Source of the DNA: Actinomycetota bacterium
GTDB taxonomy: Bacteria; Actinomycetota; Acidimicrobiia; Spongiisociales; UBA5794
Direction: 5' to 3'
Length of the DNA stretch: 64,000 bases
Assembly: GCA_013151445.1 (NCBI GenBank)
Contig: JAADIG010000005.1
Span: forward strand, 30,838 to 94,837
Made by a program: the position numbers and the translations under genes. The notes beneath the pieces are model-generated. The model did not search any database. It had not been told where the DNA came from and saw only the letters and a list, made by a program, of their open reading frames with translations. Below are positions 9,360-63,725 of this stretch, one piece after another (positions within the stretch are counted from its first letter, which is position 1; each line of letters begins with the position of its first letter).

Positions 9360-9365
9360 ATGACG

Positions 9366-10438: not shown

Positions 10439-10461
10439 AGCGCTATTCGACGATCGAGCGT

Positions 10462-12061: not shown

Positions 12062-12089
12062 GCTAGCGCCATACTTCCCAGATGAGCGG

Positions 12090-44262: not shown

Positions 44263-46311
<2,049 letters not shown>

Positions 46312-46332: not shown

Positions 46333-47160
46333 TCAACCCGGAATCTCATTCGATTCGTGATGAGCCAGTGGGCTGGGTCTTCCCCGGCGACGCTCGGAGC
46401 GTATCCCCCGTGATCGCTCGCTGGCGACGATCGCGGCAACGATGAGGTCATCACCTTTAACGCGGCGATGTTCCGTGAGCGCCGGTTGCAACAGTTCCGT
46501 GAGTTGACTCCGAACCGTGTTTCGAGCCGCCGAACTCAGCGTTGTTCGTCGGTTCACATACTCCTTTGCCACCCGGTAGCTGGCATCGGTCACCAGGGCC
46601 GAGTCGACGTGGCGCACGAGGCGCATCGCTCCCGACGTGACGATCGGGCGTTGGGGGCGCGGGAGCCGGACGACGACCGTACCCGCAACCGTGTCGCCGA
46701 GCCGTTGGTTCAGCGGTGACATCAGCATGGCCCAGAGGCCGATCGGCGGAAACATGTCGAGGAACCGCATGAGCGTACGGATCGTCGTTGCTTGTACCGT
46801 CGGGGGGCGCGCCTCCAGGGAAATTACTTGGAGGCTGCACAGCTTGCGACCGGGGGTCTGGCCCTCACGTTTGATGTCGAAGTACGCCCAGTAGCCGAAC
46901 AGAATGGCGATCGCGACCGAAGAAAGAACGACCAGCACGACGGTGCTGCCCCCACCAACAAAGAGTATCGACGCGAGCACGGCGAACACTGCGACCTCTA
47001 TCAGGTAGACCAGGCCGAGGTCGATCAAGGCAGCAATGAGCCGCGAGCCGACGCCCGCGATCTGGAGCGGGAACGTGAAGCCTTCGGGTGTCGTAACCGA
47101 GTGTGTAGTGTGCAACATGTGTCCGGGCCAACAGTACCTCCAACCATCACTGAAAACCAC
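46333..47160 (-). CDS. RDD-family membrane protein (start 47160 or internal ATG 47118)
   Basis: 'IAGVGSRLIAALIDLGLVYLI' and 'GQTPGRKLCSLQVI' are RDD (PF06271) hallmarks. C-terminal cytoplasmic tail. Confidence 0.6.
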   Translation of the reverse strand: MVFSDGWRYCWPGHMLHTTHSVTTPEGFTFPLQIAGVGSRLIAALIDLGLVYLIEVAVFAVLASILFVGGGSTVVLVVLSSVAIAILFGYWAYFDIKREGQTPGRKLCSLQVISLEARPPTVQATTIRTLMRFLDMFPPIGLWAMLMSPLNQRLGDTVAGTVVVRLPRPQRPIVTSGAMRLVRHVDSALVTDASYRVAKEYVNRRTTLSSAARNTVRSQLTELLQPALTEHRRVKGDDLIVAAIVASERSRGIRSERRRGRPSPLAHHESNEIPG

Positions 47161-49300: not shown

Positions 49301-50226
49301 TTTGGGACGGGGACCTTGTCGAGGGTTTCGCTCACCGCGCTTGTCGCGCTGTATCGGTCTAGCTCGGCTTCGGGTCTGATAATTATTCGATGCGCGAGCA
49401 CGATGTTCGCCACGGCCTTGACGTCGTCGGGTGTCACGAAGTCCCGCCCGATTAGGCGTGCCGCGGCCTTGGCCGCCGCCAGCAGGTGGACGCCGGCACG
49501 CGGTGAGGCCCCGACCTCGACGTTTGCTAGCTGGCGAGAGAACCGCACGACCGACGCGACGTATTCGATCACCTCCGGCGAGACCCTGGTGTTTGCTACT
49601 GACGTGCGCATCGATGCGATGTCTTGCGAGGTCGCGACCGCCTTGACGTGGGAAACGGACGTGTCCTTCACGCCGCTGCGTGGCAGCGCGAGTAGGGCGC
49701 GCTCAGCTTCTTCGGACGGGTACGAAAGGACGAGCTTGAAGAGGAACCGATCAAGCTGTGCTTCGGGCAGGGGATAGGTGCCCTCGTACTCGATCGGGTT
49801 CTGTGTCGCTACTACGAGGAACGGATCGGGTAGCGGATGGCGTACACCGTCGACGGTGACATGCCCCTCCTGCATGCCTTCCAAGAGTGCACTCTGGGTC
49901 TTTGGGGGAGTTCGGTTGATCTCGTCGGCGAGTACAGCGTTGTGGAAAATCGGGCCCTTTCGGAACGAAAGCTTGGCACCGTCGAGTGCCAAGGTCCCGG
50001 TGATATCCGACGGCAACATGTCGGGGGTGAATTGGATTCGTCCAAAATCGAGTCCCAATGCTGCTGCGACGGTGCGGGCAACAAGTGTCTTCGCTACGCC
50101 CGGCGGTCCCTCGATGAGTACATGGCCTTCGACGCTCAGCGCCATCAGCAAGATATCGACCGTCGCCGACGCCTCGACAACGACCTGCTCAACTGCTTCG
50201 ATGACACGGGTACGTAGTTGGTTCAT
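49297..50226 (-). CDS. moxR: MoxR-family AAA+ ATPase
   Basis: Walker A 'GPPGVAKTLVARTVA', Walker B 'VLADEINRTPPKTQSALLEGMQE' and 'FLVVATQNPIEYEGTYPLPEAQLDRF' are diagnostic of the MoxR (MRP subfamily) ATPases. Confidence 0.9.
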   Translation of the reverse strand: MNQLRTRVIEAVEQVVVEASATVDILLMALSVEGHVLIEGPPGVAKTLVARTVAAALGLDFGRIQFTPDMLPSDITGTLALDGAKLSFRKGPIFHNAVLADEINRTPPKTQSALLEGMQEGHVTVDGVRHPLPDPFLVVATQNPIEYEGTYPLPEAQLDRFLFKLVLSYPSEEAERALLALPRSGVKDTSVSHVKAVATSQDIASMRTSVANTRVSPEVIEYVASVVRFSRQLANVEVGASPRAGVHLLAAAKAAARLIGRDFVTPDDVKAVANIVLAHRIIIRPEAELDRYSATSAVSETLDKVPVPK

Positions 50227-51356
50227 CCTCGGTCCTTCCTCATGGTTCTTTTTGATCTCAAAACTTGTGCGAGGGCTTGCGCAGTGGGGAGAAGTGGCGA
50301 AACCGAACTCAGGGCAAGGTTTATTTTCTGGTCCGGGACACCGGCCCGGCGCCCGGCCTCGCGCAGGTCGGCGGGATCGTTGCTTGCTGCTCGCCGTTGG
50401 AGTTCGCGCCGCAGCCGCATCCCAAGATAAGCGCCTGCGGGTCGGCGGGCATCTTCGATGCGTGCGAGGCGGGTTCCGAGCGCCGTTGCGTATTGAGATC
50501 GCGAAGGTTCAAGAGTGCGTTTGTTGCGCTCGATTGGTCCGAAGCGTGAGGTCGCCGACACGGCATACACGAATGCGGCGACACCGAGCAGCAGCAGCGT
50601 AGTTTTGATGTTCCGCGGGAGCGTTGCGAAACCGGTGGTTGGGCTCGGCGGTGTGACCGGTTCGTAGAAGAAAACCGGCTGGTCGGGTGCTCCGGCAACG
50701 AGTAGTGGGAGGCTGGCGTTATCAGCGTTGTACAGCCATCGGTTTGTGAGCAGGTCCGGATCTGCGAGGAACCAGGCAATTCCCTTCCCGATGGCGTCGG
50801 CGGCAACCGATGCACCGTCGGCGGTCACAACGACCGGGAGGGCGTCGCCAAGATCCGTGAACTGGCGGATGCCGGCTACGGGGCCACGGAGCATTGCGAG
50901 TTCGATACGTTCATCCAGCAGGCCATCAACTGTGACTTGAACCTGTGCCTGGACCGTCGTGGGTGAGGTTATCCGCGGTGCGACGGTGAGTGGTGGTGGT
51001 GCCCCAGCGAGGGCGAACACAACGTTGACGCCCGAACCGATGAGCTCCTCGAGTTGAGTTATCTCGGCGGCATCGAACGCGTGGATGCCGGCGATGAACA
51101 CCGTGGATCCCGGCGACACCGCAAGTGTGGATGTTGAAGGAAGGTCGGGTAGGCGGCGTATTGGGTGATCCTGTTCAAGGAGTGCATAAAGGTTGTCGAG
51201 CCCCGCGAGGGATGTGTCGTACGTTGACCACGGCACTGACTGTGTCGTTGGGGTCGGTGTTGGGGGGAAGAGTGTGATGTAGAGGCCCGCAAACAGTACG
51301 AAACCAACGGGAACCGTCCACACGACGTTCCAAAAGCCCTCCCGGCGGCGCTTCAT
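50223..51356 (-). CDS. DUF4350-domain protein (N-terminal TM anchor)
   Basis: TM 'VVWTVPVGFVLFAGLYITLF' then an extracytoplasmic domain resembling DUF4350. ATGA overlaps at both ends. Confidence 0.5.
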   Translation of the reverse strand: MKRRREGFWNVVWTVPVGFVLFAGLYITLFPPTPTPTTQSVPWSTYDTSLAGLDNLYALLEQDHPIRRLPDLPSTSTLAVSPGSTVFIAGIHAFDAAEITQLEELIGSGVNVVFALAGAPPPLTVAPRITSPTTVQAQVQVTVDGLLDERIELAMLRGPVAGIRQFTDLGDALPVVVTADGASVAADAIGKGIAWFLADPDLLTNRWLYNADNASLPLLVAGAPDQPVFFYEPVTPPSPTTGFATLPRNIKTTLLLLGVAAFVYAVSATSRFGPIERNKRTLEPSRSQYATALGTRLARIEDARRPAGAYLGMRLRRELQRRAASNDPADLREAGRRAGVPDQKINLALSSVSPLLPTAQALAQVLRSKRTMRKDRG

Positions 51357-52030
51357 GACGGATCCTCCGCAAGGATCTCGGCCCACACTTGTTCAAGATC
51401 GTCGGCCATGGTCTTGGTTGCTGGACGTTCGGCGTAGACAACGGTGTCGAAGTCCTGCGCAACCCGACTGGCGAGCGGATGACGGCTCGTTCGCCGAAGA
51501 GTGTCCGCGGTGGCTGTGGTGTGGTCGGTGATCTTTCCCCGCTCCTCCATTGCGGCGAGTCCCCATCGGAACCAGAGACGGACGGCGCTGGCGTAATCAC
51601 CGCCGTCTGCGGCCTCTTGCGCATCGTCGGCGTAGGTGCGGCGCTGCACATCCAGATTTGGGGCCGCGTCGGGCGACGCCCGTACGGCCGCCGGTTTCTT
51701 GCGGCCCTTGCGGGTCCGTACGAAGACGACCACAAGGGCGATACCGAGGGCGGCGATCAGGAAGTAGGCGAGGAACGTGCCATCGCCCGCCGCAGGCGGT
51801 CGTGCGGGAGACTCGAAGTTGTTGGGTTCTTGCTGGGTCGTTCCGGCAACATCGAGTCGAGTCAGCGTGTCGATGCGCTCCACGGCTGCCTCCGGGGATG
51901 CCTCTCCCAGGATCGTATCCATGTCTACCGAGCGACCGTCAACCTCCGTCACCGCCCGCAGTTGATCGAACGCGCCGGGGTCTGTCTGTGCGTTCTCGGC
52001 CAGGTCGACAAGTTCTTGGCTGGTAATCAT
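51353..52030 (-). CDS. DUF4129-domain protein (single TM, C-terminal DUF4129)
   Basis: TM 'FLAYFLIAALGIALVVVFV', then C-terminal 'AVRLWFRWGLAAMEERGKI...TADTLRRT' typical of DUF4129. Start set at ATG 52030, which forms an ATGA overlap with the upstream membrane gene's stop. Confidence 0.5.
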   Translation of the reverse strand: MITSQELVDLAENAQTDPGAFDQLRAVTEVDGRSVDMDTILGEASPEAAVERIDTLTRLDVAGTTQQEPNNFESPARPPAAGDGTFLAYFLIAALGIALVVVFVRTRKGRKKPAAVRASPDAAPNLDVQRRTYADDAQEAADGGDYASAVRLWFRWGLAAMEERGKITDHTTATADTLRRTSRHPLASRVAQDFDTVVYAERPATKTMADDLEQVWAEILAEDPS

Positions 52031-52861: not shown

Positions 52862-53893
52862 TCACTGGCGCGGCCGATGAAGCTTCCAGGGACGCTGCCG
52901 GGAGACAGGTTTGGGCTGCAGCAAAGCAACCGCAAATCTATCCTCGGTGTCGGTCCACCACCCACCGACGGACAGTCCCGCGGCGGATGCTTCGGCGACT
53001 ACGACGTCATACCGGAACTTGCAGGACACTTCGTCGTGGATTTCCTCGCCCTTTGCGAGGTGAATCGTGAGATCGAGGTCGGCGACTGTCACGTCCATGG
53101 CGCGGGTTGCTCGCAGTCCCATGGCGACACACTCGCTTGCAGCAACCCATTTCACGACGTACTCGAACTCATCGACTGGGAAGTTGGCGCCGAGTTCCCT
53201 GTTGAGAACGTGGAGGATGTTCTTGTTGAACTCTGCGGTAACACCAGCGCTGTCGTTGTATGCGGCTAGGAGCGTCTCGACATCCTTCACGAGATCAAGA
53301 CCTACGAGGAGGCCGTCAGCCGGTTCGAGTACGGCCCCGACCGAGCGATAGAACTCGACTCTCTCCTGGGACCGAAAATTCCCGATCGTCGACCCGAGGA
53401 ACGTCACGAGCCGGCGTCCGGAGTGTGGGATTTTCGGGAGATCCGAGGGGAAATCACCCACGAGACCTTCGATTGTCAGCCAGGGATAGTGTCCACTCAA
53501 AGTCTCTGCGGCGTCGCGAATCGCTGCCTCGGAGATATCGAACGGAACGTAGAGTGTTCCGGTCCCCGCCCGGCGGAGGGCCTCAAGCAACAATCGGGTT
53601 TTGACCGAGTATCCAGACCCGAGCTCGACGAGCTCCACGGGTTTGATCGCATCCATCATTTCGTCCGCATACAACGTGAGAATCTCCGCTTCGGCCCGGG
53701 TGAGGTAGTACTCCGGGAGTCGGGTGATGTCTTCAAACAGCTCCGACCCGCGGGCGTCGTAGAAGTATTTTGACGAGAGTTGTTTTGGTGTTCCGATCAA
53801 CCCCTGGCGAGTATCCGCGGCGAGTTCAGCACCGACGTTCGACGGAGGTGACAGCCTCCGGATCGAGGGTGCAGTTTCAAGCTGTCCAGTCAT
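52862..53893 (-). CDS. egtD: L-histidine N-alpha-methyltransferase (ergothioneine biosynthesis)
   Basis: '[34 protein letters not shown]', '[14 protein letters not shown]' SAM-binding and 'FLGSTIGNF' EgtD motifs. Start at ATG 53893 forms an ATGA overlap with the egtC stop. Confidence 0.85.
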   Translation of the reverse strand: [343 protein letters not shown]

Positions 53894-54660
53894 AGCCCCT
53901 CCAGCGGGTGCGTGGTGATTCCCTGTGATGTGAGATGGACGAGGTGATGCTCCGGGACCGGCTCCCAAGCTCGCAGGTCGTCCAACGGTTCCGAGACCAC
54001 CCACGATCCGGTCGATTGTTGAACGGTATATAAACTATTCAGCGGGGCATTCACGGAGTGGCGCACCGCAACTATGCCGGTTCCGTCACCTACGACGAGA
54101 TTCATTGTTGCGTCAGAGCCGTTCTCGGCGACAAGCCCGCCGACGAAGTTCAGTGCTTCGGTCGTGGCGTCAACGAGGTTTCCCTCATAACGATCGACGA
54201 CGGTGAGGAAGATGGCCAGTGAATCGTTGATGGTATGCAGTTGCTCATAGGTGTCCGCGGAGAGTGAGCTCAACAGGCTACGTCCCAGAGCACCACGGAA
54301 CCCCGTGATGCGGCCATTGTGTACCGCGGCCAAATCACCAACAACAAATGGTGCAACGTTTGCTGGACCGATCGCAATGCCGGCACTCGCCGAGCGAACC
54401 GCTGCGATCAGCATTCCGGAGGTGAGACGTTCCGAGAGAGCGGGCAGGTTGGCATCCTGCCAGGGTGCGAGCGGTGTGACGTAGCGCAGTGGTGTGCGGT
54501 CCCCACCGTCCCACCAGGCCACCCCCGTTCCGTCGACGTTGACGGAGCCATGGATCTGCTCGCGCGGCTGATACGCCTGTTTCTCAAGCGAGTGAGGCGC
54601 TCGGTAGAGTGCCTCGGCGAGCGGAATCGCATCCCCAACATACGCAGCTAGACGGCACAT
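53890..54660 (-). CDS. egtC: Gamma-glutamyl-hercynylcysteine sulfoxide hydrolase (class II glutamine-amidotransferase fold)
   Basis: Begins 'MCRLAAYVGD' (Ntn-hydrolase Cys2 nucleophile), ~256 aa, positioned between egtB and egtD. The ORF-track start at 55497 was rejected (overlaps egtB). Confidence 0.8.
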   Translation of the reverse strand: MCRLAAYVGDAIPLAEALYRAPHSLEKQAYQPREQIHGSVNVDGTGVAWWDGGDRTPLRYVTPLAPWQDANLPALSERLTSGMLIAAVRSASAGIAIGPANVAPFVVGDLAAVHNGRITGFRGALGRSLLSSLSADTYEQLHTINDSLAIFLTVVDRYEGNLVDATTEALNFVGGLVAENGSDATMNLVVGDGTGIVAVRHSVNAPLNSLYTVQQSTGSWVVSEPLDDLRAWEPVPEHHLVHLTSQGITTHPLEGL

Positions 54661-54661
54661 C

Positions 54662-55999
54662 TCAGATGTCCCAGGCCAATCTGATACCGGCGAAGATCTG
54701 ACGGCGGATTGGGTAGTCCCAGTTGCGGAACGTTGTGCGTGCCGTCGACTTCGATGTCGCCCACGACGCTCCCCGCAACACCCTGTAGTCCTCACCGAAG
54801 AACACTTCGGAGTACTCCGGGTACGGAAACATCGTGTAGCCGGGGTACGGCTCGAAGAACGACGTCGTCCACTCATATCCATCGCCCAGCATCTGTTCGA
54901 CACCGTATGCGCTCGCCCCGGCCGGATAACTTCCGACTGGAGCCGGACCCCAGCCACGATGGCCAAGGTTGGCGTGGTCGGTCGTCGGCGCAGTCTCGCC
55001 CCATGGATAACTTCGTGTGGTTGCTGTCTCCGGGTCCCATGCCGCGGCCTTTTCCCACTCGACCTCCGTTGGAAGGCGTGCACCGAGGGAGCGGGCGAAC
55101 GCCTCCGCTTCGTGAAAGCTGACGTGCTCGACCGGTTCGGCAGGATCGAGAGAGGTGATGTGGCCAAAGCGCCGTACGAGCCATCCGCCGTCGAGATCGG
55201 GAATCCAGCCCTGGGGTGCCGCATGGCCCTGCTCGGTGATCCAATCCCAACCATCTGCGGTCCAAAGTTCCTGACGTTGATAGCCCCCTGCCCGAACGAA
55301 TTCGCTGTAACGAGCAACGGTAACCGGGAATTTGTCGATGGCGAACGTGTCGACGTTGATCGCATGGGCGGGGCGTTCGTTGTCGTACGTGTGTGTGCGG
55401 TCGTCCGTTCCGAGGCTGAACGTTCCACCGGGAATTGTGACCCGGGCGGCGTCGTCCACGGCGTCGGTACGGCGCGGCAGGCGTCGTGGAGTGGCAATCA
55501 CATAGGGGGCCAGATCGTCGCGCAGGTCCAGTGCTTGAAGCACCGTCTCTTGATGTTGAGCCTCGTGCTGGGCAACCATCGACCACACGAACCCGTTCGC
55601 CAGCAGGGGTGTGTCTGGATCTAGATCTGTGTGCCGGAGAAGGTCCAGTGCTTCGCCGCGCACATTGTCCATATATGTGGCGGCTTCGCGGCGATCGAGA
55701 ATGGGCAGATCCGCCCGCACCCACCGCGGGTTGTCAAAAGGGTTGTAGAGACCATCAAGGTCGGGGTCGTGGGCCGCACGTCCATCGAGTTCGCGAAGTA
55801 GCCAGTATTCCTCGAAGTTGGCTACGTGTCCCATATCCCAAACAATCGGGGACATGAGTGAATTGAACTGTCGGTGGAGGTCATCGTCGGTGAGGGCATC
55901 GGTCATCTGGAACGTGCGACTCCGGATGGTGGAGAGCATCGATTCGAGGTCTGTCCGGCGTGCGGCGTGCGCGGCCCCCCGGTTCGGGGCGGCAGTCAT
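54662..55999 (-). CDS. egtB: Hercynine oxygenase / sulfoxide synthase (DinB_2 + FGE-sulfatase domains)
   Basis: 'SPIVWDMGHVANFEEYWLL' iron-binding DinB_2 motif and the C-terminal FGE-like domain ('GGSWATS', 'RNWDYP'). The egtC start codon follows 2 nt after the stop. Confidence 0.85.
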   Translation of the reverse strand: MTAAPNRGAAHAARRTDLESMLSTIRSRTFQMTDALTDDDLHRQFNSLMSPIVWDMGHVANFEEYWLLRELDGRAAHDPDLDGLYNPFDNPRWVRADLPILDRREAATYMDNVRGEALDLLRHTDLDPDTPLLANGFVWSMVAQHEAQHQETVLQALDLRDDLAPYVIATPRRLPRRTDAVDDAARVTIPGGTFSLGTDDRTHTYDNERPAHAINVDTFAIDKFPVTVARYSEFVRAGGYQRQELWTADGWDWITEQGHAAPQGWIPDLDGGWLVRRFGHITSLDPAEPVEHVSFHEAEAFARSLGARLPTEVEWEKAAAWDPETATTRSYPWGETAPTTDHANLGHRGWGPAPVGSYPAGASAYGVEQMLGDGYEWTTSFFEPYPGYTMFPYPEYSEVFFGEDYRVLRGASWATSKSTARTTFRNWDYPIRRQIFAGIRLAWDI

Positions 56000-56054: not shown

Positions 56055-57488
56055 CTATTCCTGTATGGGGACGGCGTTCGCCTGGGGAACTCGCATATCG
56101 ACCAGTTTGTCCGGGTTCATGATCCCGAGGGGATCGAGGGCACCCTTGATCAATCGCATGAGGTCGAGTTCCTCAGCTGCGACGACATCGGCGAAACGGC
56201 GCATCTTCTTTTGGCCGAGACCATGTTCGGCGCTGATTGTGCCGCCGAGATCCAGGGCGGTTGTTTCGATCACGCGCATGATGTCGGACCCGTACCCTGC
56301 GAACTCCTGTGGCTCCATGGAATCGGGCCGTACGACGTTGTAGTGGATGTTGCCATCCCCGACGTGGCCGAAGGTAACGATCTCGGCATCGGGGAGCAAG
56401 GCCCGGACACCCGCATCGGTGACCGTAACGAATTCGGCAACCGCACCGACGGCGACCCCGGTGTCTCCCTTGATACACGTCGGATCTTCAATCAACGCGG
56501 CAGGGATGCCCTCCCGGATTTCCCACAGGGTCCTTTCCTGCTGATCATCAGCTGCAATCACAGCATCCTCGACAACCCCGTCCGCATTGGCTTGTGCAAG
56601 CACATCCAGCAGGGTCTCTTCGAGGGGTATCCGGTCCGACGTTGCGGTCACAACGACGAGTATGTGCCACTCATGAGATCCGGCGAGTGGTGCCCGACGC
56701 CCGTTGAGGTAACGTTCGACGGCGTTGCGGTTCATGAGCTCAAAGGTTGACAGGAACTCATCGAGCTCGGTACGGCATCGGCTGAGAAGATCGACTGCGG
56801 CTGCACACGAGGCCACGCCGATCCAGGCGGTCCTTTGGAGTTTTGGCGCAGGGAACAAGCGGAGCTTTGCTGCGGTGATGATGCCGAGTGTTCCCTCGGC
56901 GCCAAGAAACAGCTGTTTCAGGTCGTAGCCGGTGTTGTCCTTGGGGAGACGATTAAGTCCGTTCCATACGGCACCGTTCGCCAAAACGACTTCCAGGCCG
57001 AGCACCAGATTACGAGCCATGCCGTATCGGATGACGTTGGTCCCTCCCGCGTTGGTGCTGAGATTGCCACCAACTTGGCTACTCAATCCGGCATGTCGAA
57101 GCGGAAACAGTCGGTTGTTGTTCGAAGCTAGCTCTTGGAGCTCCACGAGTAGATAACCAGCCTCGACCGTCACTGTGTTTGATACCAAGTCGATATCGCG
57201 CACTGTGCGCATCTTTTCCAGGGACACTACGACACTCTGTTCATCATCCACCGGTACGGCCCCGCCGACGAGGCCACTGTTGCCGCCGCGAGGAACGATG
57301 CTGACTTCGGCTGCCGCGCACGAACGCACAATCTCGACGAGTTCACTCGTCGTTCGGGGACGCATGACGGCCAACGGAACACCGTGATAGTTCTTGGTGG
57401 CATCCGCCGCATACTGCTCGTTGTCCGCCACTGGCAACGGGCCGTCACCGATGCCACCGAGGGTCACTAACAAGGCATTGCTGGGCAT
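56055..57488 (-). CDS. FAD-linked oxidase (GlcD / D-lactate dehydrogenase-like, FAD_binding_4 + FAD-oxidase_C)
   Basis: 'VSIVPRGGNSGLVGGAVP' FAD-binding motif and C-terminal 'SAEHGLGQKKM'. Start set at 'MPSNALLV' (ATG 57488). The upstream 69-aa extension was judged non-coding. Confidence 0.8.
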   Translation of the reverse strand: MPSNALLVTLGGIGDGPLPVADNEQYAADATKNYHGVPLAVMRPRTTSELVEIVRSCAAAEVSIVPRGGNSGLVGGAVPVDDEQSVVVSLEKMRTVRDIDLVSNTVTVEAGYLLVELQELASNNNRLFPLRHAGLSSQVGGNLSTNAGGTNVIRYGMARNLVLGLEVVLANGAVWNGLNRLPKDNTGYDLKQLFLGAEGTLGIITAAKLRLFPAPKLQRTAWIGVASCAAAVDLLSRCRTELDEFLSTFELMNRNAVERYLNGRRAPLAGSHEWHILVVVTATSDRIPLEETLLDVLAQANADGVVEDAVIAADDQQERTLWEIREGIPAALIEDPTCIKGDTGVAVGAVAEFVTVTDAGVRALLPDAEIVTFGHVGDGNIHYNVVRPDSMEPQEFAGYGSDIMRVIETTALDLGGTISAEHGLGQKKMRRFADVVAAEELDLMRLIKGALDPLGIMNPDKLVDMRVPQANAVPIQE

Positions 57489-57529
57489 GGGATCTCTCTC
57501 CGTTTGCTGCTCTCGCTGGCAGCCGTCTC

Positions 57530-58654
57530 CTATGGTTGGGGTCGAGCTGAGAATACGACCTGAAGGCGTGCTTCGTCGCGTACTGAGACGAAACCCCTCA
57601 TACTCGGTGGGCTGAAGCCAAAGTCGGTAATCGCGATGTTCGTGGTGCCGAGGATTTGGAGGGCACCATCGGCGATGCGACCTTCGATATCCCACACCAC
57701 CTCACGGCTTGTGCCCATGATTGTCAGCTCCCCGGTGATCGACGTCGTGAAGGTTTCGCCAGTAACGATTCCGGGTGGTACCTCGAATCCACTCGTCGTG
57801 AATACTGCGTTGGGATTCGAAGTGAACAGCCGGGCGACGTTACGGTCGCGTCGGCTTTGGTCCGAACGGAAGGACGTGAGGTCGATGGTGATCTCGGAGA
57901 TACCATCGAGATCGATCGTTCCGCCCAGCGTATCGGTGCGTCCAACTGCGACAGTTTCGAGGTTATTGGAGAGGAACACCTCGGGGACGGTATAGGTTGC
58001 TTCACCGTCACGAATGGAGAACGTCCGTGCTGTGAGCGGATCGATCGCCGTCTGTGCGTTGGGAGAATCCGTGTTGAGATCGTCGAGGGCGAGGTTGCCC
58101 GACTCGACATCGATGACACCCTGGAATCCCACACCCACGGCGAGGGCAACGACGGGTAAGGCAATGAGGGCGCCTTGGGGCACCGACACCGATCCCAGGC
58201 CCGTCAACATATACGCTGTTCCAAAGAAGATGATGCCGGCCAGGGGCGCCCCGAATGTGATCATGTTGTCAAGAAACGCAACCTGGACCGCGACCAGCCC
58301 CACCAACACAATCAGAAACCCGACTCCCATGGCGCGCCAAAGGTCCTTGTGCGCCCGTTGCTGAGCCTCTTCCGCCTGGCGGCGAGTCCGTTCGGCGTCG
58401 CGTTTGGCTCTCGTTCCCGAACGTTTCTTTCGCAACGTGTTCGGTTTGTTCTGTTCCGCGAGCATCTTGCTAGTGATTCGGTCGTTGAGCAAAGCACCAA
58501 TAACACCGATGATCAGGGCCCCGATGACAACAGTGAGGGTGTTCATCAGGATCGGATCCGGGGATCGCAGGGGAATGGATAGCGCCGCAGCCACCAGGCC
58601 GGTTGTTGCCCCGATAGCGAGGCCTCGAAGGACTGGCTGGGTGTTCGTTGACAT
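57530..58654 (-). CDS. Membrane-anchored YceI-like domain protein
   Basis: Two N-terminal TM helices, a Lys/Arg/Glu-rich coiled segment, another TM, and a C-terminal β-rich YceI-like domain ('ISEITIDLTSFRSDQSRRDRNV', 'TGELTIMGTSREV'). Start at 'MSTNTQPVLRG' (ATG 58654). Confidence 0.55.
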   Translation of the reverse strand: MSTNTQPVLRGLAIGATTGLVAAALSIPLRSPDPILMNTLTVVIGALIIGVIGALLNDRITSKMLAEQNKPNTLRKKRSGTRAKRDAERTRRQAEEAQQRAHKDLWRAMGVGFLIVLVGLVAVQVAFLDNMITFGAPLAGIIFFGTAYMLTGLGSVSVPQGALIALPVVALAVGVGFQGVIDVESGNLALDDLNTDSPNAQTAIDPLTARTFSIRDGEATYTVPEVFLSNNLETVAVGRTDTLGGTIDLDGISEITIDLTSFRSDQSRRDRNVARLFTSNPNAVFTTSGFEVPPGIVTGETFTTSITGELTIMGTSREVVWDIEGRIADGALQILGTTNIAITDFGFSPPSMRGFVSVRDEARLQVVFSARPQP

Positions 58655-58769: not shown

Positions 58770-61142
58770 CTATCTGATCTCGCGTGCGAAGAGGTCAATT
58801 GTGTCTTTGAGCTGTGGCTCACGTTCGTAATTGCTGTGCGACTCGTAGGGGAACAGAGGTGCGAGGGCTTCGAGGACACGAATATCGGCTTCCGGGTCCG
58901 GTGGTGACAATGTGCCGCCGGGTGCTACAAACACCTTCCGGCCGATGTAGTCGGTCGGGCGCCACAGGTTGCGCCACGCTTGGGTACCGGTTGAGCGAAG
59001 AGTGGCGAGCCGGTCTCTGAGTGCATCGAAGAGGCCGGGGGTGCCAAAGTTTTCGGGGAAGAACCGGCCGTAAAGAGTGCTGAGTGGGGACCCGAACGTG
59101 ACGAGGCCGACCCTGGTCAGCGATTCTGCGGGCAACCTTTGGGAGGGTCCGGCAATGGCTGCGTAACTGTTGGGCTCGATGGTGTCGGTACCGTCGGTGG
59201 TGGGACCTACGGTGTTCGGCAGGTTGAATCCGACCTGTTCGCGTTCGGCAGCTATCTGGACCAGGGCAGCGAACGCAATGACGGTTCCCTGTGAATGTGC
59301 AGACACGATCACCGACTTTCCCGCAAGGAGGTGATGTCGGACGCGATCCCGGAACTCTGGAACTGCTCGCTCGGCATAACAGGGTGCTGCAAGAGGATGG
59401 AAACGACGTGGCCAAAAGCTCAGCACATCCCAAACCTTGCCGAGCTGACGGCGGCTGGCACGAGATTGTGCGTTCTTCCGAATCAACTGGACGCCCGGGA
59501 ACACGTAAAGGACAATGATGACTGCTGCCGCGGGGTGAAGAAAGCTCAGTCCCTCGATTCCCAGTAGAGGAGCGGCAAAGGCGCCGTCTGGTCCTGCGGA
59601 CACGTTGAACCCACCGATCCACCCCTGAACGAACGTCGTGATGAGCAGAATGGTTACAAGAAGCAGAATCAGCCCGTCTCCACGCGATGGAAGTTTTGCG
59701 AGGACCCGGGCTTTCGCCACCGCCCGGACCCATGCACTCTCCCGATCTGAGAGCGTATTGCGCCGATCGAAGTAGTCCGCGCGGACCGCGGCGGAAGGTT
59801 TTGTCGAGAGGCGCAGGTACAGGAGCAGCGTGATCGCGCTGAGGATCATCGAAACGATGAGGATATCGATGAGTACGATGTCAAAGCCGTTGTCGGCAAC
59901 CCACTGTGCCCCTCGTAATGCCCTTCCGAGTACATGAGCGATGGCGACGAACCCTGCTCCCGCGATCGTGATCGAAAGACCCGCGGCGAGTGCGGGAAAC
60001 AACCACAGCCAGCCACCGAGATTGGCGTGGTCATCGAGTAGGAACCGGCGGTAGAACATCAGGCCGAGGGTGAGTACACCGACAATGTAGAACACCATCG
60101 ACAGCCCCCGGATCGCATCGAGGTACCCCAGCGGTGTCGTGATCGTGTTGTCGATGAGACCGCTGGCGAGCGTGACGAGACCGTAGCCAGATATCCCGAG
60201 GAGAACATGGGTACCCGTCCACGCTGCCTGTCGTCTTGTGTCTTGCACCGCGGTGTGATTCCGGTCGCCAGCATCACGGAATCTTTCGGGGCCGCTGAGC
60301 CACCAGAGGGCCACCACGACTGCGAGCATCACCGCGGAGATCGCAAACTGGGCACCTAGCGGTGGGGTGACCCATCCCATACGGGCGACAGCATGTCCGG
60401 CCGCCGCCCCAAGCAACAGCATCGTCAGCCCCAGGTGCCACCGAAACAGCCTCCGATGTTCCTCCCACCGGTACCAGAAGCCCTGGTTCTCCAGCGTCGT
60501 ATTACGACGCAGTCGGCTCGTGTCCGAGCGGCCTTGGTCCATCGAGCCTATGGCTCTGCGGGCCGGGTCCGCCTCGTATCCTTCAAGCTGATCCTGGCTG
60601 CGGAGGATGAACAGGAAAAGTCCGAGGATCAAAAATGCCGCAAGACCGATGCCGACGGTCACCAGCCAGACGGGGTTGGATCCGAACCATCCCACGGGTC
60701 CGACGTACCAACGACTCGAACACTCTGTCGTTGCTGCGCAACCGAAGGCAACGATTTCGGTCGTAAGCGTCGCAGTCCACATGACGTACACGGCCGTGAT
60801 TGCCAACCCGCCGAGTACTACTAGCAGCCGCCCCCACCACAGGCTCGATCGGACCCTCTCGTCGGGTGTGCCGCGTTCGTCGGCCGTGGGCTGGAACATC
60901 CATCCCGCCACGTTCATCAGGGTGAACGGAAGCAGTATCCACCACACTGCCGTGCTCGATGCGCCCGATGTGAGCCGACCCCATTCGTACGCTTCGATAT
61001 CCCGATCATCAGATGGGGGTACGTCAGGTTTGTAGAAACCCGCCGTTCGATCTCCCGCCGTTTGGGTAACGGGACCCCCGAGGATCTCCTGTGCGGTCGC
61101 ACCACCGACACCGCGGATCTCCAGCTGCACCGTTTGTGGCAT
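58770..61142 (-). CDS. Large polytopic membrane protein with C-terminal lipase/esterase-like alpha/beta-hydrolase domain
   Basis: The N-terminal ~560 aa contain at least 12 hydrophobic helices. The C-terminal ~230 aa carry the classic lipase pentapeptide 'GHSQG' in 'VIVSAHSQGTVIAF' plus 'VTFGSPL'. Confidence 0.55.
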   Translation of the reverse strand: MPQTVQLEIRGVGGATAQEILGGPVTQTAGDRTAGFYKPDVPPSDDRDIEAYEWGRLTSGASSTAVWWILLPFTLMNVAGWMFQPTADERGTPDERVRSSLWWGRLLVVLGGLAITAVYVMWTATLTTEIVAFGCAATTECSSRWYVGPVGWFGSNPVWLVTVGIGLAAFLILGLFLFILRSQDQLEGYEADPARRAIGSMDQGRSDTSRLRRNTTLENQGFWYRWEEHRRLFRWHLGLTMLLLGAAAGHAVARMGWVTPPLGAQFAISAVMLAVVVALWWLSGPERFRDAGDRNHTAVQDTRRQAAWTGTHVLLGISGYGLVTLASGLIDNTITTPLGYLDAIRGLSMVFYIVGVLTLGLMFYRRFLLDDHANLGGWLWLFPALAAGLSITIAGAGFVAIAHVLGRALRGAQWVADNGFDIVLIDILIVSMILSAITLLLYLRLSTKPSAAVRADYFDRRNTLSDRESAWVRAVAKARVLAKLPSRGDGLILLLVTILLITTFVQGWIGGFNVSAGPDGAFAAPLLGIEGLSFLHPAAAVIIVLYVFPGVQLIRKNAQSRASRRQLGKVWDVLSFWPRRFHPLAAPCYAERAVPEFRDRVRHHLLAGKSVIVSAHSQGTVIAFAALVQIAAEREQVGFNLPNTVGPTTDGTDTIEPNSYAAIAGPSQRLPAESLTRVGLVTFGSPLSTLYGRFFPENFGTPGLFDALRDRLATLRSTGTQAWRNLWRPTDYIGRKVFVAPGGTLSPPDPEADIRVLEALAPLFPYESHSNYEREPQLKDTIDLFAREIR

Positions 61143-61308
61143 ATTCCCTCGTTTCGCCGCCCATCACTGTACGCGAATATTGAGGGGTATCTCACCAGGT
61201 GGGGCACAGGTGGCGGATAGGTGTGGTCTTGGGAGACAGATGGCAGACCCTTGACGCTTCCGCCAGTATCTGCGGGAGGGGCTCAACTCCCGGGAGCCAT
61301 CCGCATCC

Positions 61309-61710
61309 CTACTGGACGCGGAACGTCCAGGTGAATTCACCGGTATCGGCCGATCCGACGATGCGGTTGTACACCACCGCGACGGAGTGGTCGCCAACGG
61401 GCCACGCTAGATTCCCCTCTTCGTCACTTGGACGCCATATGGTCACGCCGGTTGCTTGGGTGACGTTGAGAAACTCGGAGGGTATCTCAACGCCGTCAAC
61501 GAACAGCTGGATCTCGTAACCAACTTTCATGTCAACCATTACGGAGACCTGGCGTTGCACCGTGTCGCCCTGTCCAGGGGAGAAGCGCTCGACGGCATCC
61601 GGAACGACCGCCGCTCTTCCAGTAGGTGCGAAGAGGACAACACCGACAATGACACCGATGAGGGCAAGGCCGAGCAGGGTGAGGGTGATGCGGAAACGGG
61701 TCGAGTTCAT
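61309..61710 (-). CDS. Small membrane-anchored / secreted β-rich protein, unknown function
   Basis: N-terminal 'ITLTLLGLALIGVIVGVVLFA' signal/anchor, then ~100 aa with a β-strand pattern. No motif recognised. Confidence 0.4.
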   Translation of the reverse strand: MNSTRFRITLTLLGLALIGVIVGVVLFAPTGRAAVVPDAVERFSPGQGDTVQRQVSVMVDMKVGYEIQLFVDGVEIPSEFLNVTQATGVTIWRPSDEEGNLAWPVGDHSVAVVYNRIVGSADTGEFTWTFRVQ

Positions 61711-61767: not shown

Positions 61768-62922
61768 ATGCGTATCAATCCCGTTCTCAGCGAGCTAGGC
61801 GAGTACAAGATCGCCGCCGTAAAAGAGATTGCCCGGGCGCTTCAAGCCGAGGGTAAGAACGTCATCGATTTTTCGATAGGTGACCCCCGCGAGCCGACAC
61901 CAGCGTTCATTACCGACGCACTCCACGATGCTATCCCAGCGGTGAGCCAGTATCCGGCGGCGGCCGGACTCCCCGAGTTTCGCGCGGCCGTCGCGGATTA
62001 CGTGCAACGGCGGTTTGGCGTTTCGGTCGATCCCGACACCCAGATCGTACCGACCTCGGGGTCCAAGGAGGCGGTGTTCAACACTCCGTTTGCGTTTTGT
62101 GATCCCGGTGCGAACGATGTCGTCGTGTATGGATCGCCGGGATATCCGATCTACGAACGCGGGGCCCGATTCGCCGGCGCCGAGGCGTACGCCGTTGAGC
62201 TATCTGGTGACTTCGTGTTACGCCACGACGACATTCCCGACGATATTTGGAGCCGCACCCGTCTCGTCTGGACGTGCACGCCTCATAACCCGACCGGGGC
62301 TGTCACTGCGGCTGGGGACCTTGGTGCGCTTCTGGATCGTTGTCGAACCAGCGATGCTTTGCTGCTGTCAGATGAGTGTTACATGGATGTGTACGAAGAA
62401 GAGCACTTCCCCGACGGTCCGACATCGACGCTTCAGGTCGCCGGGCCGGGCTGCCAGGGCGCCCTCGTGTACTTGTCGCTCTCGAAGCGGTCCGGCATGA
62501 CGGGGTACCGGTCCGGGGCGATCGTCGGTGATCCCGACGCGATTGCGGTGCTGAAGAACCTACGATCCACAACCGGCACTGCGGCACCGGAACACATCCA
62601 GAGGATGGCGGTGGCAGCCTGGGGGGACGATGTCCACGCCGAGGAACGTCGGGATGTGTTCGCCGCGAAACGTGCAGTGCTTCGTCAAGGATTTGAGCCG
62701 CTGGGTTACAAGGTCGTGGCATCCCAGGCTGGGCTGTATTTATGGATTGCGGTCGGTGACGACTTGGCCATGATGGATAGATTGTTGCAAAGTGGTGTTG
62801 TTGTTTCGGCTGGCCGGTTCTTCGGCGCCGGCGGTGAGGGTTACATTCGCCTCGCACTTGTCCCGACTCTCGAAGATTGCGCCAAGGCCGCGGAGGTGGT
62901 TCGCACATGTCTGAGTTCGTAA
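61768..62922 (+). CDS. dapC: PLP-dependent aminotransferase class I; by context N-succinyldiaminopimelate aminotransferase
   Basis: PLP-Lys motif 'LSKRSGMTGYRSG' and 'SGSKEAVFN'. Immediately upstream of, and overlapping, dapD-dapE. Confidence 0.7.
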   Translation: MRINPVLSELGEYKIAAVKEIARALQAEGKNVIDFSIGDPREPTPAFITDALHDAIPAVSQYPAAAGLPEFRAAVADYVQRRFGVSVDPDTQIVPTSGSKEAVFNTPFAFCDPGANDVVVYGSPGYPIYERGARFAGAEAYAVELSGDFVLRHDDIPDDIWSRTRLVWTCTPHNPTGAVTAAGDLGALLDRCRTSDALLLSDECYMDVYEEEHFPDGPTSTLQVAGPGCQGALVYLSLSKRSGMTGYRSGAIVGDPDAIAVLKNLRSTTGTAAPEHIQRMAVAAWGDDVHAEERRDVFAAKRAVLRQGFEPLGYKVVASQAGLYLWIAVGDDLAMMDRLLQSGVVVSAGRFFGAGGEGYIRLALVPTLEDCAKAAEVVRTCLSS

Positions 62923-63725
62923 CCGATAGGGAAGTTATCGAAGCCGCATATGCCGACCTCGACCTACTTGAGGAGGCTACCGAATCGGTGGAAAGGACCA
63001 TTGCACGTCTCGACCGCGGCGAGGTGCGCGTCGCCGAGCCCGCCGATGGTGACTGGGTCGTCAACCAATGGGTTAAACAGGCGATCTCGTTGTACTTCCG
63101 CATCGCAAAGCTGGAAACGTGGAGTCTTGGCATATTCGAGTTCTATGACAAGATCCCACCCAAGACCGGGTTGGAGGCATTCGGTGTGCGGGTCGTTCCC
63201 CCGGGTGTCATTCGTTACGGTGCGTTCTGCGAACCCGGTGTGGTTGTTATGCCGGGGTATGTCAACATCGGTGCGTATGTCGGGTCCGGAACCATGGTCG
63301 ACACCTGGGCGACCGTCGGATCTTGCGCCCAGATCGGCACGGGTGTGCATCTATCGGGTGGTGTCGGGATCGGTGGGGTTCTCGAACCGCCAGGGGCGTC
63401 ACCCGTCATCATCGAAGATGGGGCGTTCATAGGGAGCCGGTCGATTGTTGTCGAGGGGGTGCGCATTGGTGCCGGGGCGGTGCTCGGAGCAAATACGACG
63501 ATCACGAAATCGACTCCGATTATTGATGTGACGGGATCCGAACCAGTGGAAACTCGCGGAGTCGTTCCCCCCAACGCCGTGGTGGTCCCCGGTACTCGGC
63601 CAAAGCAATTCCCCGCAGGGACCTACGACCTGCAGTGTGCCCTCATTATCGGAGAGCGCTCTGGGTCGACGGATCGCAAGACATCGTTGAACGATGCGCT
63701 CCGCGTCTTCGGAGTGTCGGTATGA
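62907..63725 (+). CDS. dapD: 2,3,4,5-tetrahydropyridine-2,6-dicarboxylate N-succinyltransferase
   Basis: Left-handed β-helix hexapeptide repeats ('IGAYVGSGTMVDTWATVGSCAQIGTGVHLSGGVGIGGVLEP') and DapD N-domain. Start at ATG 62907, inside the 16-nt overlap with dapC. Confidence 0.85.
   Translation: MSEFVTDREVIEAAYADLDLLEEATESVERTIARLDRGEVRVAEPADGDWVVNQWVKQAISLYFRIAKLETWSLGIFEFYDKIPPKTGLEAFGVRVVPPGVIRYGAFCEPGVVVMPGYVNIGAYVGSGTMVDTWATVGSCAQIGTGVHLSGGVGIGGVLEPPGASPVIIEDGAFIGSRSIVVEGVRIGAGAVLGANTTITKSTPIIDVTGSEPVETRGVVPPNAVVVPGTRPKQFPAGTYDLQCALIIGERSGSTDRKTSLNDALRVFGVSV

What the first reader, a model, noticed from the sequence alone, without database searches (positions are those of the whole stretch)
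58770..61142. 790-aa polytopic membrane protein fused to a C-terminal GHSQG lipase-like hydrolase domain
At least 12 predicted TM helices are followed by a ~230-aa soluble domain with the textbook lipase pentapeptide G-H-S-Q-G ('SAHSQGTV') and a 'VTFGSPL' motif. A membrane-embedded lipase/acyltransferase of this size is unusual and unannotatable by simple motif. It could be an envelope lipid-remodelling enzyme or an acyl-transfer system. It lies next to a YceI-like (polyisoprenoid-binding) membrane protein, hinting at a lipid-handling locus.
Basis: partly seen in the sequence, partly recalled or inferred. Interest (0 to 1): 0.5.

Follow-up and report, generated by a model that had tools for sequence, protein, structure and literature searches.

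The report
Membrane domain nested inside a lipase-like hydrolase
This gene encodes a probable serine esterase whose catalytic fold is split in two by about ten membrane-spanning helices, placed where related enzymes carry their lid; it belongs to a large, unnamed protein family of Actinomycetota with no tested function.

Summary
The 790-aa ORF at 58770..61142 (-) is real. It has a good ribosome-binding site, gene-like codon composition and full-length homologues. It is not a polytopic protein with a lipase domain added at the end.

The alpha/beta-hydrolase fold is split. Residues 1-61 give four strands and the oxyanion loop RGVGG (HGVGG in most relatives). Residues 553-790 give the AHSQG nucleophile elbow (S617), D731 and H769. 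About ten TM helices (62-552) are nested between strand beta4 and helix alphaB, a known lid site.

A profile search finds 2926 cluster representatives. Every named one is an Actinomycetota 'hypothetical protein', and none reaches a Pfam or NCBIfam threshold. The nearest characterised relative, far below threshold, is the T6SS phospholipase A1 Tle3, which has the same xHSQG elbow.

No neighbouring gene is conserved. The YceI gene is a lineage-specific neighbour.

Best reading: a membrane-capped serine esterase or acyltransferase acting on an inner-leaflet lipid. The architecture is well supported; the substrate is inferred.

The parts
58770..61142 (-). Complete CDS: 790 aa plus a TAG stop.
   Evidence: ORF list. 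Codon-position GC matches neighbouring genes. Full-length homologues exist.
61145..61150 (-). Shine-Dalgarno sequence GAGGGA, 2 nt upstream of the ATG.
   Evidence: Read directly from the sequence.
60960..61142 (-). N-terminal part of the alpha/beta-hydrolase (residues 1-61). It has strands 4-9, 25-30, 35-39 and 48-53. There is no signal peptide.
   Evidence: AlphaFold/DSSP, and the same layout in the Streptomyces homologue. 18 positions are at least 80% conserved in 185 representatives. Covariation links residues 50/52/57/59 to 600/596/590/584.
61101..61115 (-). Oxyanion-hole loop R10-G11-V12-G13-G14, directly after the first strand. Most of the family has H-G-V-G-G here.
   Evidence: G11 174/174, V12 172/174, G14 173/175, and His at position 10 in 140/174. 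The role of the loop after beta3 follows the fold definition in PMC11878206.
60897..60959 (-). Conserved Trp-rich hydrophobic helix 62-82 (WWILLPFTLMNVAGW), directly after strand beta4. It is probably an interfacial or re-entrant lid helix rather than a full span.
   Evidence: W67 176/177; P72 and N77 177/177. 10 of its 21 positions are at least 80% conserved. The topology argument rests on parity plus loop charges.
59487..60845 (-). Membrane domain, residues 100-552. It has ten predicted TM helices: about 100-126, 157-181, 232-255, 262-282, 306-331, 342-366, 379-403, 422-444, 487-509 and 533-552.
   Evidence: Hydropathy. AlphaFold helices. K+R counts alternate between loops across 29 homologues. 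No PDB fold match. No internal repeat.
60720..60740 (-). Conserved Cys pair C135 and C141 (CAATTEC) in the first extracytoplasmic loop. A disulfide is probable.
   Evidence: C135 141/162 and C141 140/161. The loop is poor in K/R, with a mean of 1.4.
59316..59486 (-). Very conserved, Arg-rich juxtamembrane linker together with helix alphaB (residues 553-609: RRQLGKVWDVLSFWPRRFHPLAAPCYAERAVPEF).
   Evidence: R564, W571, D572, P578, R579, H582, Y589, R592 and P595 are each 97-100% conserved.
59286..59300 (-). Nucleophile elbow A615-H-S617-Q-G619. The S617 codon is at 59292-59294.
   Evidence: H616 182/184, S617 182/184, Q618 183/184, G619 183/184. It lies between strand 610-616 and helix 618-631.
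59118..59249 (-). Variable, lower-confidence insertion (residues 632-675) between helix alphaC and strand beta6.
   Evidence: Its length varies widely in alignment A1. pLDDT falls to about 60 here.
59085..59099 (-). T-F-G-S-P motif at the end of strand beta6 (residues 682-686).
   Evidence: T682 175/183, G684 183/183, P686 174/183.
58950..58952 (-). Catalytic acid D731, in the motif T-D-Y-I-G after strand 723-727.
   Evidence: D731 is 181/181, whereas D753 is only 109/149. The acid follows beta7 in this fold.
58836..58838 (-). Catalytic His769, in the motif H-S-N-Y after strand 753-755.
   Evidence: H769 149/150. The histidine follows beta8 in this fold.

Best explanation
One gene encodes a membrane-integrated serine hydrolase of the alpha/beta-hydrolase superfamily with a nested domain arrangement.

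Residues 1-61 form the first four strands and the oxyanion loop (R/H-G-V-G-G). Residues 553-790 form helix alphaB, the A-H-S-Q-G nucleophile elbow (S617), strands beta6-beta8, the acid D731 and the base H769. The chain leaves the sheet after strand beta4, on the substrate-binding face where some relatives carry a lid. It then builds one conserved interfacial helix (62-82) and about ten TM helices, and returns through a highly conserved Arg-rich juxtamembrane segment. The membrane bundle therefore takes the place of the lid or cap.

Loop charges put the catalytic domain on the cytoplasmic side.

The most likely activity is attack by the Ser-His-Asp triad on an ester (or thioester) bond of a membrane-embedded molecule that reaches the active site sideways from the inner leaflet. 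The outcome would be hydrolysis (phospholipase A, lysophospholipase or lipid deacylase) or acyl transfer.

Shown: the ORF, the family, the fold, the invariant triad and the nested order of the segments. Inferred: the cytoplasmic orientation, helix 62-82 not spanning the membrane, the active site facing the membrane domain, and the lipid substrate.
For: Gene: RBS, codon bias and full-length homologues.

Fold:
- The AlphaFold model has pLDDT 86.8 and pTM 0.89. It has 4 N-terminal and 4 C-terminal strands, with helices 62-575 in between.
- An independent model of a homologue only 28% identical (Streptomyces P0039, pTM 0.83) has the same layout.

Catalytic residues in 185 representatives: G11 174/174, S617 182/184, D731 181/181, H769 149/150, and His before G11 in 140/174. 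Their order (oxyanion loop after the first strand, Ser after beta5, Asp after beta7, His after beta8) matches the fold definition in PMC11878206.

Split domain:
- In distant homologues only the two ends align, while the middle diverges.
- Of 83 positions that are at least 80% conserved, 64 lie in the two catalytic parts, 10 in helix 62-82 and only 9 in the remaining 470 residues.
- Mean-field DCA gives an antiparallel series of N-to-C couplings: 50-600, 52-596, 57-590, 59-584. The top two exceed all 12 block shuffles.

Topology: mean K+R per loop alternates 3.4 / 1.4 / 10.1 / 0.2 / 4.0 / 0.4 / 2.5 / 1.4 / 7.9 / 0.6 / 13.0 in 29 homologues. The conserved Cys pair lies in a K/R-poor loop. There is no signal peptide.

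Lipid chemistry:
- The most consistent sub-threshold sequence matches are to the Tle3 phospholipase domain (23 of 29 members).
- Tle3 is a PLA1 with an S-H-S-Q-G elbow (PMC9860674).
- 'After beta4' is a documented lid site, used for example in the phospholipases FSH1 and DDHD2.
- PGAP1 shows that a 10-TM domain together with a lipase domain can form a lateral lipid cavity (PMC10761859).
Against: - There is no biochemical or genetic evidence for any member of the family.
- No family HMM reaches its threshold, so the Tle3, DUF900 and DUF676 similarity is only a hint.
- I could not read the model coordinates. The triad geometry, the pairing of the N-terminal strands with the C-terminal half and the position of the active site relative to the bilayer all rest on secondary-structure order, aligned lengths and weak covariation.
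- The shuffle control for the covariation removes phylogenetic signal as well, so it overstates significance.
- Helix 62-82 is hydrophobic enough to span a membrane. That it does not is deduced, not observed.
- Gene context gives no substrate clue.
- The structural neighbours include thioesterases, esterases and lipases in equal measure.
Confidence: 0.6

Rival explanations
1. A polytopic membrane protein has a complete lipase domain fused to its C-terminus, and works with the adjacent YceI-like protein in a lipid-handling locus.
For: The TM region and the C-terminal Ser motif exist. The neighbouring ORF has a YceI domain (E 1.5e-12).
Against: The C-terminal part begins at helix alphaB and has no strand carrying an oxyanion loop. 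The invariant (H/R)GVGG strand and three more strands lie at residues 1-61. YceI is absent from the 80%-identical orthologous loci L001 and L020, and from 95 of 97 related loci.
Confidence: 0.07
2. The architecture is the same, but the enzyme is an acyltransferase or transacylase. The acyl-Ser617 intermediate would be resolved by a lipid or glycolipid hydroxyl in a water-poor, membrane-capped site, as with the cutinase-like Chp1 of M. tuberculosis at the cytoplasmic membrane face.
For: A cap made of membrane helices would exclude water. Some members give weak PE-PPE and cutinase-type hits (5 of 29 members; P0039 cutinase E 0.0067). Chp1 is a precedent (PMC3318749).
Against: No partner genes such as a transporter or lipid synthase are conserved nearby. 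Sequence alone cannot separate hydrolysis from transfer. The more consistent weak matches are to a hydrolytic PLA1.
Confidence: 0.2
3. It is a conflict or defence effector: a latent membrane phospholipase that destroys the cell's own membrane when triggered.
For: The nearest characterised relative is a T6SS toxin. A 1269-aa Nonomuraea homologue sits in an apparent operon with CHAT-protease and Pepco-domain genes.
Against: There are no PADLOC hits, no phage hits, and only three hits on very large actinobacterial replicons listed as plasmids. The window gene sits among housekeeping genes (egt, dapC, dapD). A Micromonospora homologue also lies in a dapD/dapE to fdx/aminotransferase neighbourhood, which suggests vertical inheritance. 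No immunity-like or sensor partner is conserved.
Confidence: 0.06
4. It is a peptidase or protein deacylase. The triad would cleave a peptide or thioester bond of a membrane protein or lipoprotein rather than a lipid.
Against: Those structural matches reflect a minimal cap-less core and carry no specificity. The Lgt and Lnt proximity is not conserved. No peptidase family is hit.
Confidence: 0.06
5. It is an artefact: two genes joined by a frameshift or assembly error, or a chance ORF in GC-rich DNA.
For: GC-rich DNA does give many long spurious ORFs, and several overlap this one.
Against: Codon-position GC is gene-like in all three segments. The overlapping ORF 58819..59733 shows the off-frame pattern instead. 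The same end-to-end architecture is seen in thousands of independent contigs.
Confidence: 0.01

Closest known systems
T6SS phospholipase A1 effector Tle3 (Pfam PF24322; PDB 8BOZ)
   Different: Tle3 is a soluble secreted toxin with large non-membrane decorations, a Ca2+ site and a cognate immunity lipoprotein. The protein here has a roughly 490-residue TM domain nested in the fold, a cytoplasmic orientation and no immunity gene. All its HMM scores (at most about 16 bits) are below the 27-bit cut-off.
PGAP1/Bst1 GPI inositol deacylase (PMC10761859)
   Same: A 10-TM domain is combined with an alpha/beta-hydrolase 'lipase domain' that sits on the membrane domain. The lipid substrate is held in a lateral cavity formed by both. 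This is the best model for how the present protein may work.
[quoted passage not shown] 2011, as cited in PMC11878206)
   Same: These are bacterial predicted lipases in which a helical TM bundle is joined to an alpha/beta-hydrolase domain in one polypeptide.
   Different: In that family a TM domain described as N-terminal (Abhydrolase_9_N) is fused to an intact hydrolase domain. Here about ten TM helices interrupt the hydrolase fold. No PF10081 or PF15420 hit was found in 29 close and 16 more distant members.
Minimal cap-less alpha/beta-hydrolases (YdeN 1UXO, carboxylesterase II 1AUO, SOBER1/APT, TesA, type II thioesterases)
   Different: They are soluble single-domain enzymes at 9-23% identity with different elbow sequences. 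They match because the core here has no soluble cap of its own.
Alpha/beta-hydrolases with a lid inserted after strand beta4 (yeast FSH1, DDHD2, Abhydrolase_8, DUF6792; review PMC11878206)
   Different: Those lids are short soluble segments. Here the insert is 376-792 residues (median 495) and integral to the membrane. The passages of that review that a search for 'transmembrane' returned mention no TM insertion inside the fold.

Membership tests
Alpha/beta-hydrolase superfamily (Pfam clan AB_hydrolase) | A central, mostly parallel beta-sheet flanked by helices, recognisable by fold comparison. | tested here: met
Alpha/beta-hydrolase superfamily (Pfam clan AB_hydrolase) | A nucleophile in a sharp small-x-Ser-x-small turn between strand beta5 and the following helix. 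| tested here: met
   A615-H-S617-Q-G619 lies between strand 610-616 and helix 618-631. S617 is 182/184.
Alpha/beta-hydrolase superfamily (Pfam clan AB_hydrolase) | An acid after beta7 and a His after beta8, in the sequence order nucleophile, acid, His. | tested here: met
   D731 follows strand 723-727 (181/181). H769 follows strand 753-755 (149/150).
Alpha/beta-hydrolase superfamily (Pfam clan AB_hydrolase) | An oxyanion-hole loop after strand beta3 (HG-type motif). | tested here: met
   (H/R)10-G11-V12-G13-G14 follows strand 4-9. G11 is 174/174 and His10 140/174.
Tle3 (PF24322) | A score at or above the Pfam gathering threshold (27 bits). | tested here: not met
   The query scores 11 bits (E 0.29). 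23 of 29 members match only weakly, with a best E of 0.0057.
DUF900 (PF05990) and DUF676 (PF05057) | A Pfam HMM match for the window protein or a consistent match across the family. (The cut-offs for these two families were not printed, so a threshold comparison for other members was not possible.) | tested here: not met
   The window protein gave no DUF900 or DUF676 hit at E<=1. DUF900 matches 17 of 29 members (best E 3.8e-4) and DUF676 6 of 29 (best E 9.7e-4).
PGAP1 (PF07819) | A Pfam HMM match, with a contiguous luminal lipase domain after TMH1. | tested here: not met
Abhydrolase_9 / Abhydrolase_9_N transmembrane lipases (PF10081 / PF15420) | HMM matches, with an N-terminal TM bundle followed by an intact hydrolase domain. 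| tested here: not met
   No hits in 29 close and 16 more distant members. Here the TM domain interrupts the fold.
Anti-phage defence proteins (PADLOC-DB) | A match to any defence-system model. | tested here: not met
   No hits for the query, P0039 or P0021 at E<=1.
Unnamed Actinomycetota family defined here | The ordered signature: (V/I)(H/R)GVGG ... EAYxWxxLTS ... WxxLPFxxxN ... CxxxxxC ... H236 ... WDVxxFWPRxxHP..P.YxERxVPE ... xHSQG ... TxGxP ... WxxxxxxTDxIG ... HSxY, with a polytopic insert between the second and the WDV motifs. | tested here: met
   All of these motifs are present in the window protein and conserved in 185 representatives.

The most novel reading that the evidence does not exclude
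The ten-helix bundle has no detectable relative among solved structures. It may be a new kind of integral-membrane 'cap' that pulls a lipid out of the inner leaflet and presents its ester bond to a cytoplasmic Ser-Asp-His site. The family would then be a lineage-wide, so far unrecognised lipid-remodelling enzyme of Actinomycetota: an intracellular phospholipase A of a Lands-type cycle, or a glycolipid or lipoglycan deacylase or transacylase. It would be the first described alpha/beta-hydrolase with a polytopic membrane domain nested inside its fold.
Probability: 0.3. Interest if true: 0.65.

Novelty: new variant of a known kind. Interest (0 to 1): 0.55.

Why it matters
Membrane-bound alpha/beta-hydrolases that edit lipids are known, for example PGAP1, the Abhydrolase_9 'transmembrane lipases' and single-pass PlaF. 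In each of these the hydrolase domain is contiguous. Here a whole polytopic domain occupies a lid site inside the fold, in a family with nearly 3000 cluster representatives. That family is confined, as far as named members show, to Actinomycetota (Acidimicrobiia, Streptomyces, Micromonospora, Nonomuraea, Pseudonocardiales, Demequina). It has no Pfam or NCBIfam model, and every source calls its members 'hypothetical'.

If the family is a lipid deacylase or transacylase at the cytoplasmic face, it would fill a gap in actinobacterial membrane-lipid turnover. It would also give a tractable model, with Streptomyces homologues, for how a membrane domain delivers a lipid to a soluble-type active site. 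At the least it deserves a family definition, so that thousands of proteins stop being annotated as hypothetical.

Tried and rejected
1. Pfam, NCBIfam and PADLOC scans of the query and of 45 family members gave no family at threshold.
2. Sequence and profile searches of PDB sequences gave only chance-level hits with E>0.1.
3. Foldseek against the PDB gave nothing significant. The TM-domain alignments to transporters had TM-scores of 0.1-0.2. The afdb50 library was unavailable.
4. I looked for an internal repeat in the TM domain by running hhalign on residues 62-300 against 301-556. None was found (probability 0.2).
5. I looked for a conserved partner gene in 97 loci (77 non-redundant groups). 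Only generic families such as SDR, ABC and histidine kinase recur, in at most 7 groups. A beta-helix/AAA gene recurs only in Streptomyces-like loci.
6. I tried to model a spliced construct of the N- and C-terminal parts, to test directly whether the two halves form one domain.
7. A second word-index homologue search with the broad alignment returned the same 44 proteins and added nothing.
8. I looked for TM-less relatives among the best 150 representatives. The short entries are fragments.
9. Plasmid and phage collections gave three hits on very large actinobacterial replicons and no phage hit.
10. No Rfam family or tRNA gene was found in the window.
11. Literature searches for this architecture and for the A/GHSQG motif found no description of the family.
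12. D753 was considered as the catalytic acid and rejected. It is only 109/149 conserved and is not aligned in the Streptomyces clade, whereas D731 is invariant.
Full report
**1. The observation**

The minus-strand ORF 58770..61142 (ATG to TAG, 790 aa) is present as described. A GAGGGA Shine-Dalgarno sequence lies 2 nt upstream of the ATG. GC at codon positions 1/2/3 is 0.645/0.499/0.683. This is the pattern of the neighbouring egtB and dapC genes, and it holds separately for residues 1-61, 62-552 and 553-790. An overlapping alternative-frame ORF shows the off-frame pattern instead. 'SAHSQGTV' and 'VTFGSPL' are present. The pentapeptide is therefore A-H-S-Q-G, not G-H-S-Q-G.

**2. One gene, and a large family**

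The word-indexed search found 44 relatives. About 30 of them are full length (33-99% identity, 98-100% coverage). None has a Pfam domain and all are 'hypothetical'.

An exhaustive profile search of 1.84 billion cluster representatives found 2926 with E<=1e-3, 2086 with E<=1e-10 and 1061 with E<=1e-30. Most are 650-1270 aa and are matched from about residue 3 to the C-terminus.

Every named member comes from Actinomycetota: Acidimicrobiia, Streptomyces, Micromonospora, Nonomuraea, Pseudonocardiales and Demequina. The closest genome hit is 'Bacterium BMS3Bbin02' at 79% identity, and the other genome loci are Acidimicrobiia MAGs. A frameshift or assembly artefact is excluded.

**3. What the protein is**

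No Pfam, NCBIfam or PADLOC model reaches threshold for the query or for 45 relatives. PDB sequence searches give nothing.

The alignments show that the conserved sequence is not only C-terminal. An invariant N-terminal block is as conserved as the Ser motif. It reads V-x-L-E-I-R-G-V-G-G ... E-A-Y-E-W-G-R-L-T-S-G. In the distant Streptomyces homologue only the two ends align (9-148 and 555-783), and the N-terminus there reads V-H-G-V-A-G, a classic HG oxyanion motif.

AlphaFold2 on the 29-sequence alignment gives a confident model (pLDDT 86.8, pTM 0.89). Its order of elements is:
- strands 4-9, 25-30, 35-39 and 48-53;
- helices from 62 to 575;
- helix 590-606, strand 610-616, helix 618-631;
- strands 678-683, 723-727 and 753-755;
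- helix 776-789.

An independent model of the 28%-identical Streptomyces protein P0039 has the same order (pTM 0.83).

I tested this independently with a mean-field DCA on 178 sequences, restricted to the soluble columns. It gives an antiparallel ladder of N-to-C couplings: 50-600, 52-596, 57-590 and 59-584. It also gives 13-681 and 7-614. The two strongest couplings exceed all 12 shuffles in which the N-terminal block was permuted among sequences. This support is modest, because shuffling also removes phylogenetic signal.

**4. The active site**

Conservation in 185 aligned representatives:

| Position | Conservation |
|---|---|
| G11 | 174/174 |
| V12 | 172/174 |
| G14 | 173/175 |
| Position 10 | His 140, Arg 31 |
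| H616 | 182/184 |
| S617 | 182/184 |
| Q618 | 183/184 |
| G619 | 183/184 |
| G684 | 183/183 |
| W723 | 181/181 |
| D731 | 181/181 |
| H769 | 149/150 |
| D753 | 109/149 |

The fold definition places the nucleophile between beta5 and the next helix, the acid after beta7, the His after beta8, and the oxyanion contributors after beta3 and after the nucleophile (PMC11878206). By that definition the triad is S617/D731/H769 and the oxyanion loop is G11-G14. D753 is too poorly conserved to be the acid.

**5. The nested membrane domain**

The chain leaves the sheet after the strand equivalent to beta4 (48-53) and re-enters at helix alphaB (590-606). 'After beta4' is one of the five recognised lid sites. 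It is used by FSH1, DDHD2 and Abhydrolase_8.

The insert is 376-792 residues long across the family, with a median of 495.

Hydropathy and the AlphaFold helices give ten spans: about 100-126, 157-181, 232-255, 262-282, 306-331, 342-366, 379-403, 422-444, 487-509 and 533-552. There is also a Trp-rich helix at 62-82.

Across 29 homologues the mean K+R count per loop alternates strictly: 3.4, 1.4, 10.1, 0.2, 4.0, 0.4, 2.5, 1.4, 7.9, 0.6, 13.0. Three further points bear on topology:
- an invariant Cys pair (C135, C141) lies in a K/R-poor loop;
- there is no signal peptide;
- both halves of the hydrolase must lie on the same side of the membrane.

Together these give ten spans, with helix 62-82 interfacial or re-entrant and the catalytic domain in the cytoplasm. 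This is an inference.

Conservation is very uneven. Of 83 positions that are at least 80% identical, 64 lie in the catalytic halves and 10 in helix 62-82 (W67, P72, F73 and N77 are 97-100%). Only 9 lie in the other 470 residues: R105, T116, C135, C141, G164, L217, F222, W223 and H236. The juxtamembrane return segment is almost invariant and Arg-rich: R564, W571, D572, F576, W577, P578, R579, H582, P583, Y589, R592 and P595.

The bundle therefore looks like a structural cap or anchor whose first helices and cytoplasmic rim shape the site. It does not look like a second catalytic or transport machine. It has no sequence repeat and no significant Foldseek match in the PDB.

**6. Gene context**

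- The YceI-domain neighbour is real (PF04264, E 1.5e-12). Its true start is probably the Met at 58654.
- It is present only in the window and in a 98%-identical contig (L019).
- In the orthologous loci at about 80% identity (L001, L020) the FAD-oxidase gene follows the target after 87 nt.
- Across 97 loci (77 non-redundant groups) no neighbour family occurs in more than 7 groups, and those that recur are generic.
- A Micromonospora homologue also lies among dapD/dapE and fdx/aminotransferase genes, as the window gene lies beside dapC/dapD. This suggests old positional synteny, not an operon.
- One 1269-aa Nonomuraea homologue is followed by CHAT and Pepco genes. This was seen in that single locus only.
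- There are no phage hits. The only hits in the plasmid collection are on very large replicons.

**7. Mechanism**

Shown:
- a real gene;
- a large family;
- an alpha/beta-hydrolase core assembled from two separated segments;
- an invariant Ser-Asp-His triad and oxyanion loop;
- a polytopic insert at the beta4 lid site.

Inferred:
- the cytoplasmic orientation;
- the active site facing the membrane domain, because the beta4-to-alphaB crossover lies on the substrate-binding edge of the sheet;
- a membrane-embedded ester substrate.

The only hints about chemistry are these:
- The most consistent sub-threshold similarity is to Tle3 (23 of 29 members).
- Tle3 is an experimentally shown phospholipase A1 with an S-H-S-Q-G elbow (PMC9860674).
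- PGAP1 is a structural precedent. Its 10-TM domain and lipase domain jointly hold the lipid in a lateral cavity (PMC10761859).

I therefore favour a lipid esterase (phospholipase A, lysophospholipase or deacylase), or possibly a transacylase, working at the inner leaflet. My confidence is about 0.85-0.9 for the architecture and catalytic competence, about 0.5 for a lipid substrate, and 0.6 overall.

**8. Comparison and novelty**

The protein is a member of the alpha/beta-hydrolase superfamily: all four defining features were met. It is not a member of Tle3, DUF900, DUF676, PGAP1 or Abhydrolase_9 by their HMM criteria.

It works most like PGAP1 or the Abhydrolase_9 'transmembrane lipases'. It differs from both because the membrane domain is nested inside the fold and the enzyme faces the cytoplasm. 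In the passages that my 'transmembrane' search returned from a 2024 survey of the superfamily, the only TM-associated cases described are N- or C-terminal additions. My literature searches found no description of this family.

I rate it a new variant of a known kind, belonging to a large unannotated family. Interest is moderate (0.55). The architecture is unusual and the family is large, but the function is not yet known.

Noticed in passing
window 57530-58654 (-): A membrane-anchored YceI-domain protein. The ORF as listed runs to 58879, but the real start is probably the Met at 58654. The gene is a lineage-specific insertion: it is present in the 98%-identical contig L019 and absent from the roughly 80%-identical orthologous loci L001 and L020.
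   Followed up: yes
window 52862-55999 (-): An ergothioneine biosynthesis cluster. It has egtD (PF10017, E 6.5e-105), an egtC-like ORF in between, and egtB (FGE-sulfatase plus DinB_2). An FAD-linked oxidase follows at 56055-57695. The cluster is conserved next to the target in L001.
   Followed up: partly
window 61309-61710 (-): A 133-aa protein with an N-terminal membrane anchor, directly upstream on the same strand (166-nt gap). It has no Pfam or NCBIfam hit. It is conserved beside the target only in the closest loci (L001 and L020, 90-92% identity).
   Followed up: partly
window 46333-51386 (-): A cluster of a MoxR-type AAA_3 ATPase (49297-50226), a DUF58/VWA protein (48062-49300), a DUF4350 protein (50223-51386) and an RDD-family membrane protein (46333-47160). 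NAD-dependent DNA ligase LigA lies at 44266-46311 (+).
   Followed up: no
L018 7001-12380 (Nonomuraea sp. MTCD27): A 1269-aa family member with a long extra C-terminal region. It overlaps by 4 nt the start of a CHAT-protease gene, which is followed by a Pepco-domain gene. This may mean that one branch of the family was recruited into a conflict system. It was seen in this one locus only.
   Followed up: partly
L011 and L013 (Streptomyces), and L054, L058, L063, L073, L087, L097: In Streptomyces-like loci a large beta-helix (NosD/Beta_helix) plus AAA ATPase protein recurs near the homologue. It is immediately downstream and convergent in L011 and L013, and up to a few kb away in the metagenome loci. 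In L011 and L013 a DeoR regulator also lies upstream. This is probably lineage synteny.
   Followed up: partly
L014 (Micromonospora) 687-13364: The distant homologue lies between dapE/dapD-like genes and a ferredoxin plus class I/II aminotransferase pair. This echoes the window's dapC/dapD neighbours at 61768-63725 and hints at an ancient chromosomal position for the gene.
   Followed up: no
window 1-64000: No tRNA gene and no Rfam family at gathering threshold anywhere in the 64-kb window.
   Followed up: yes
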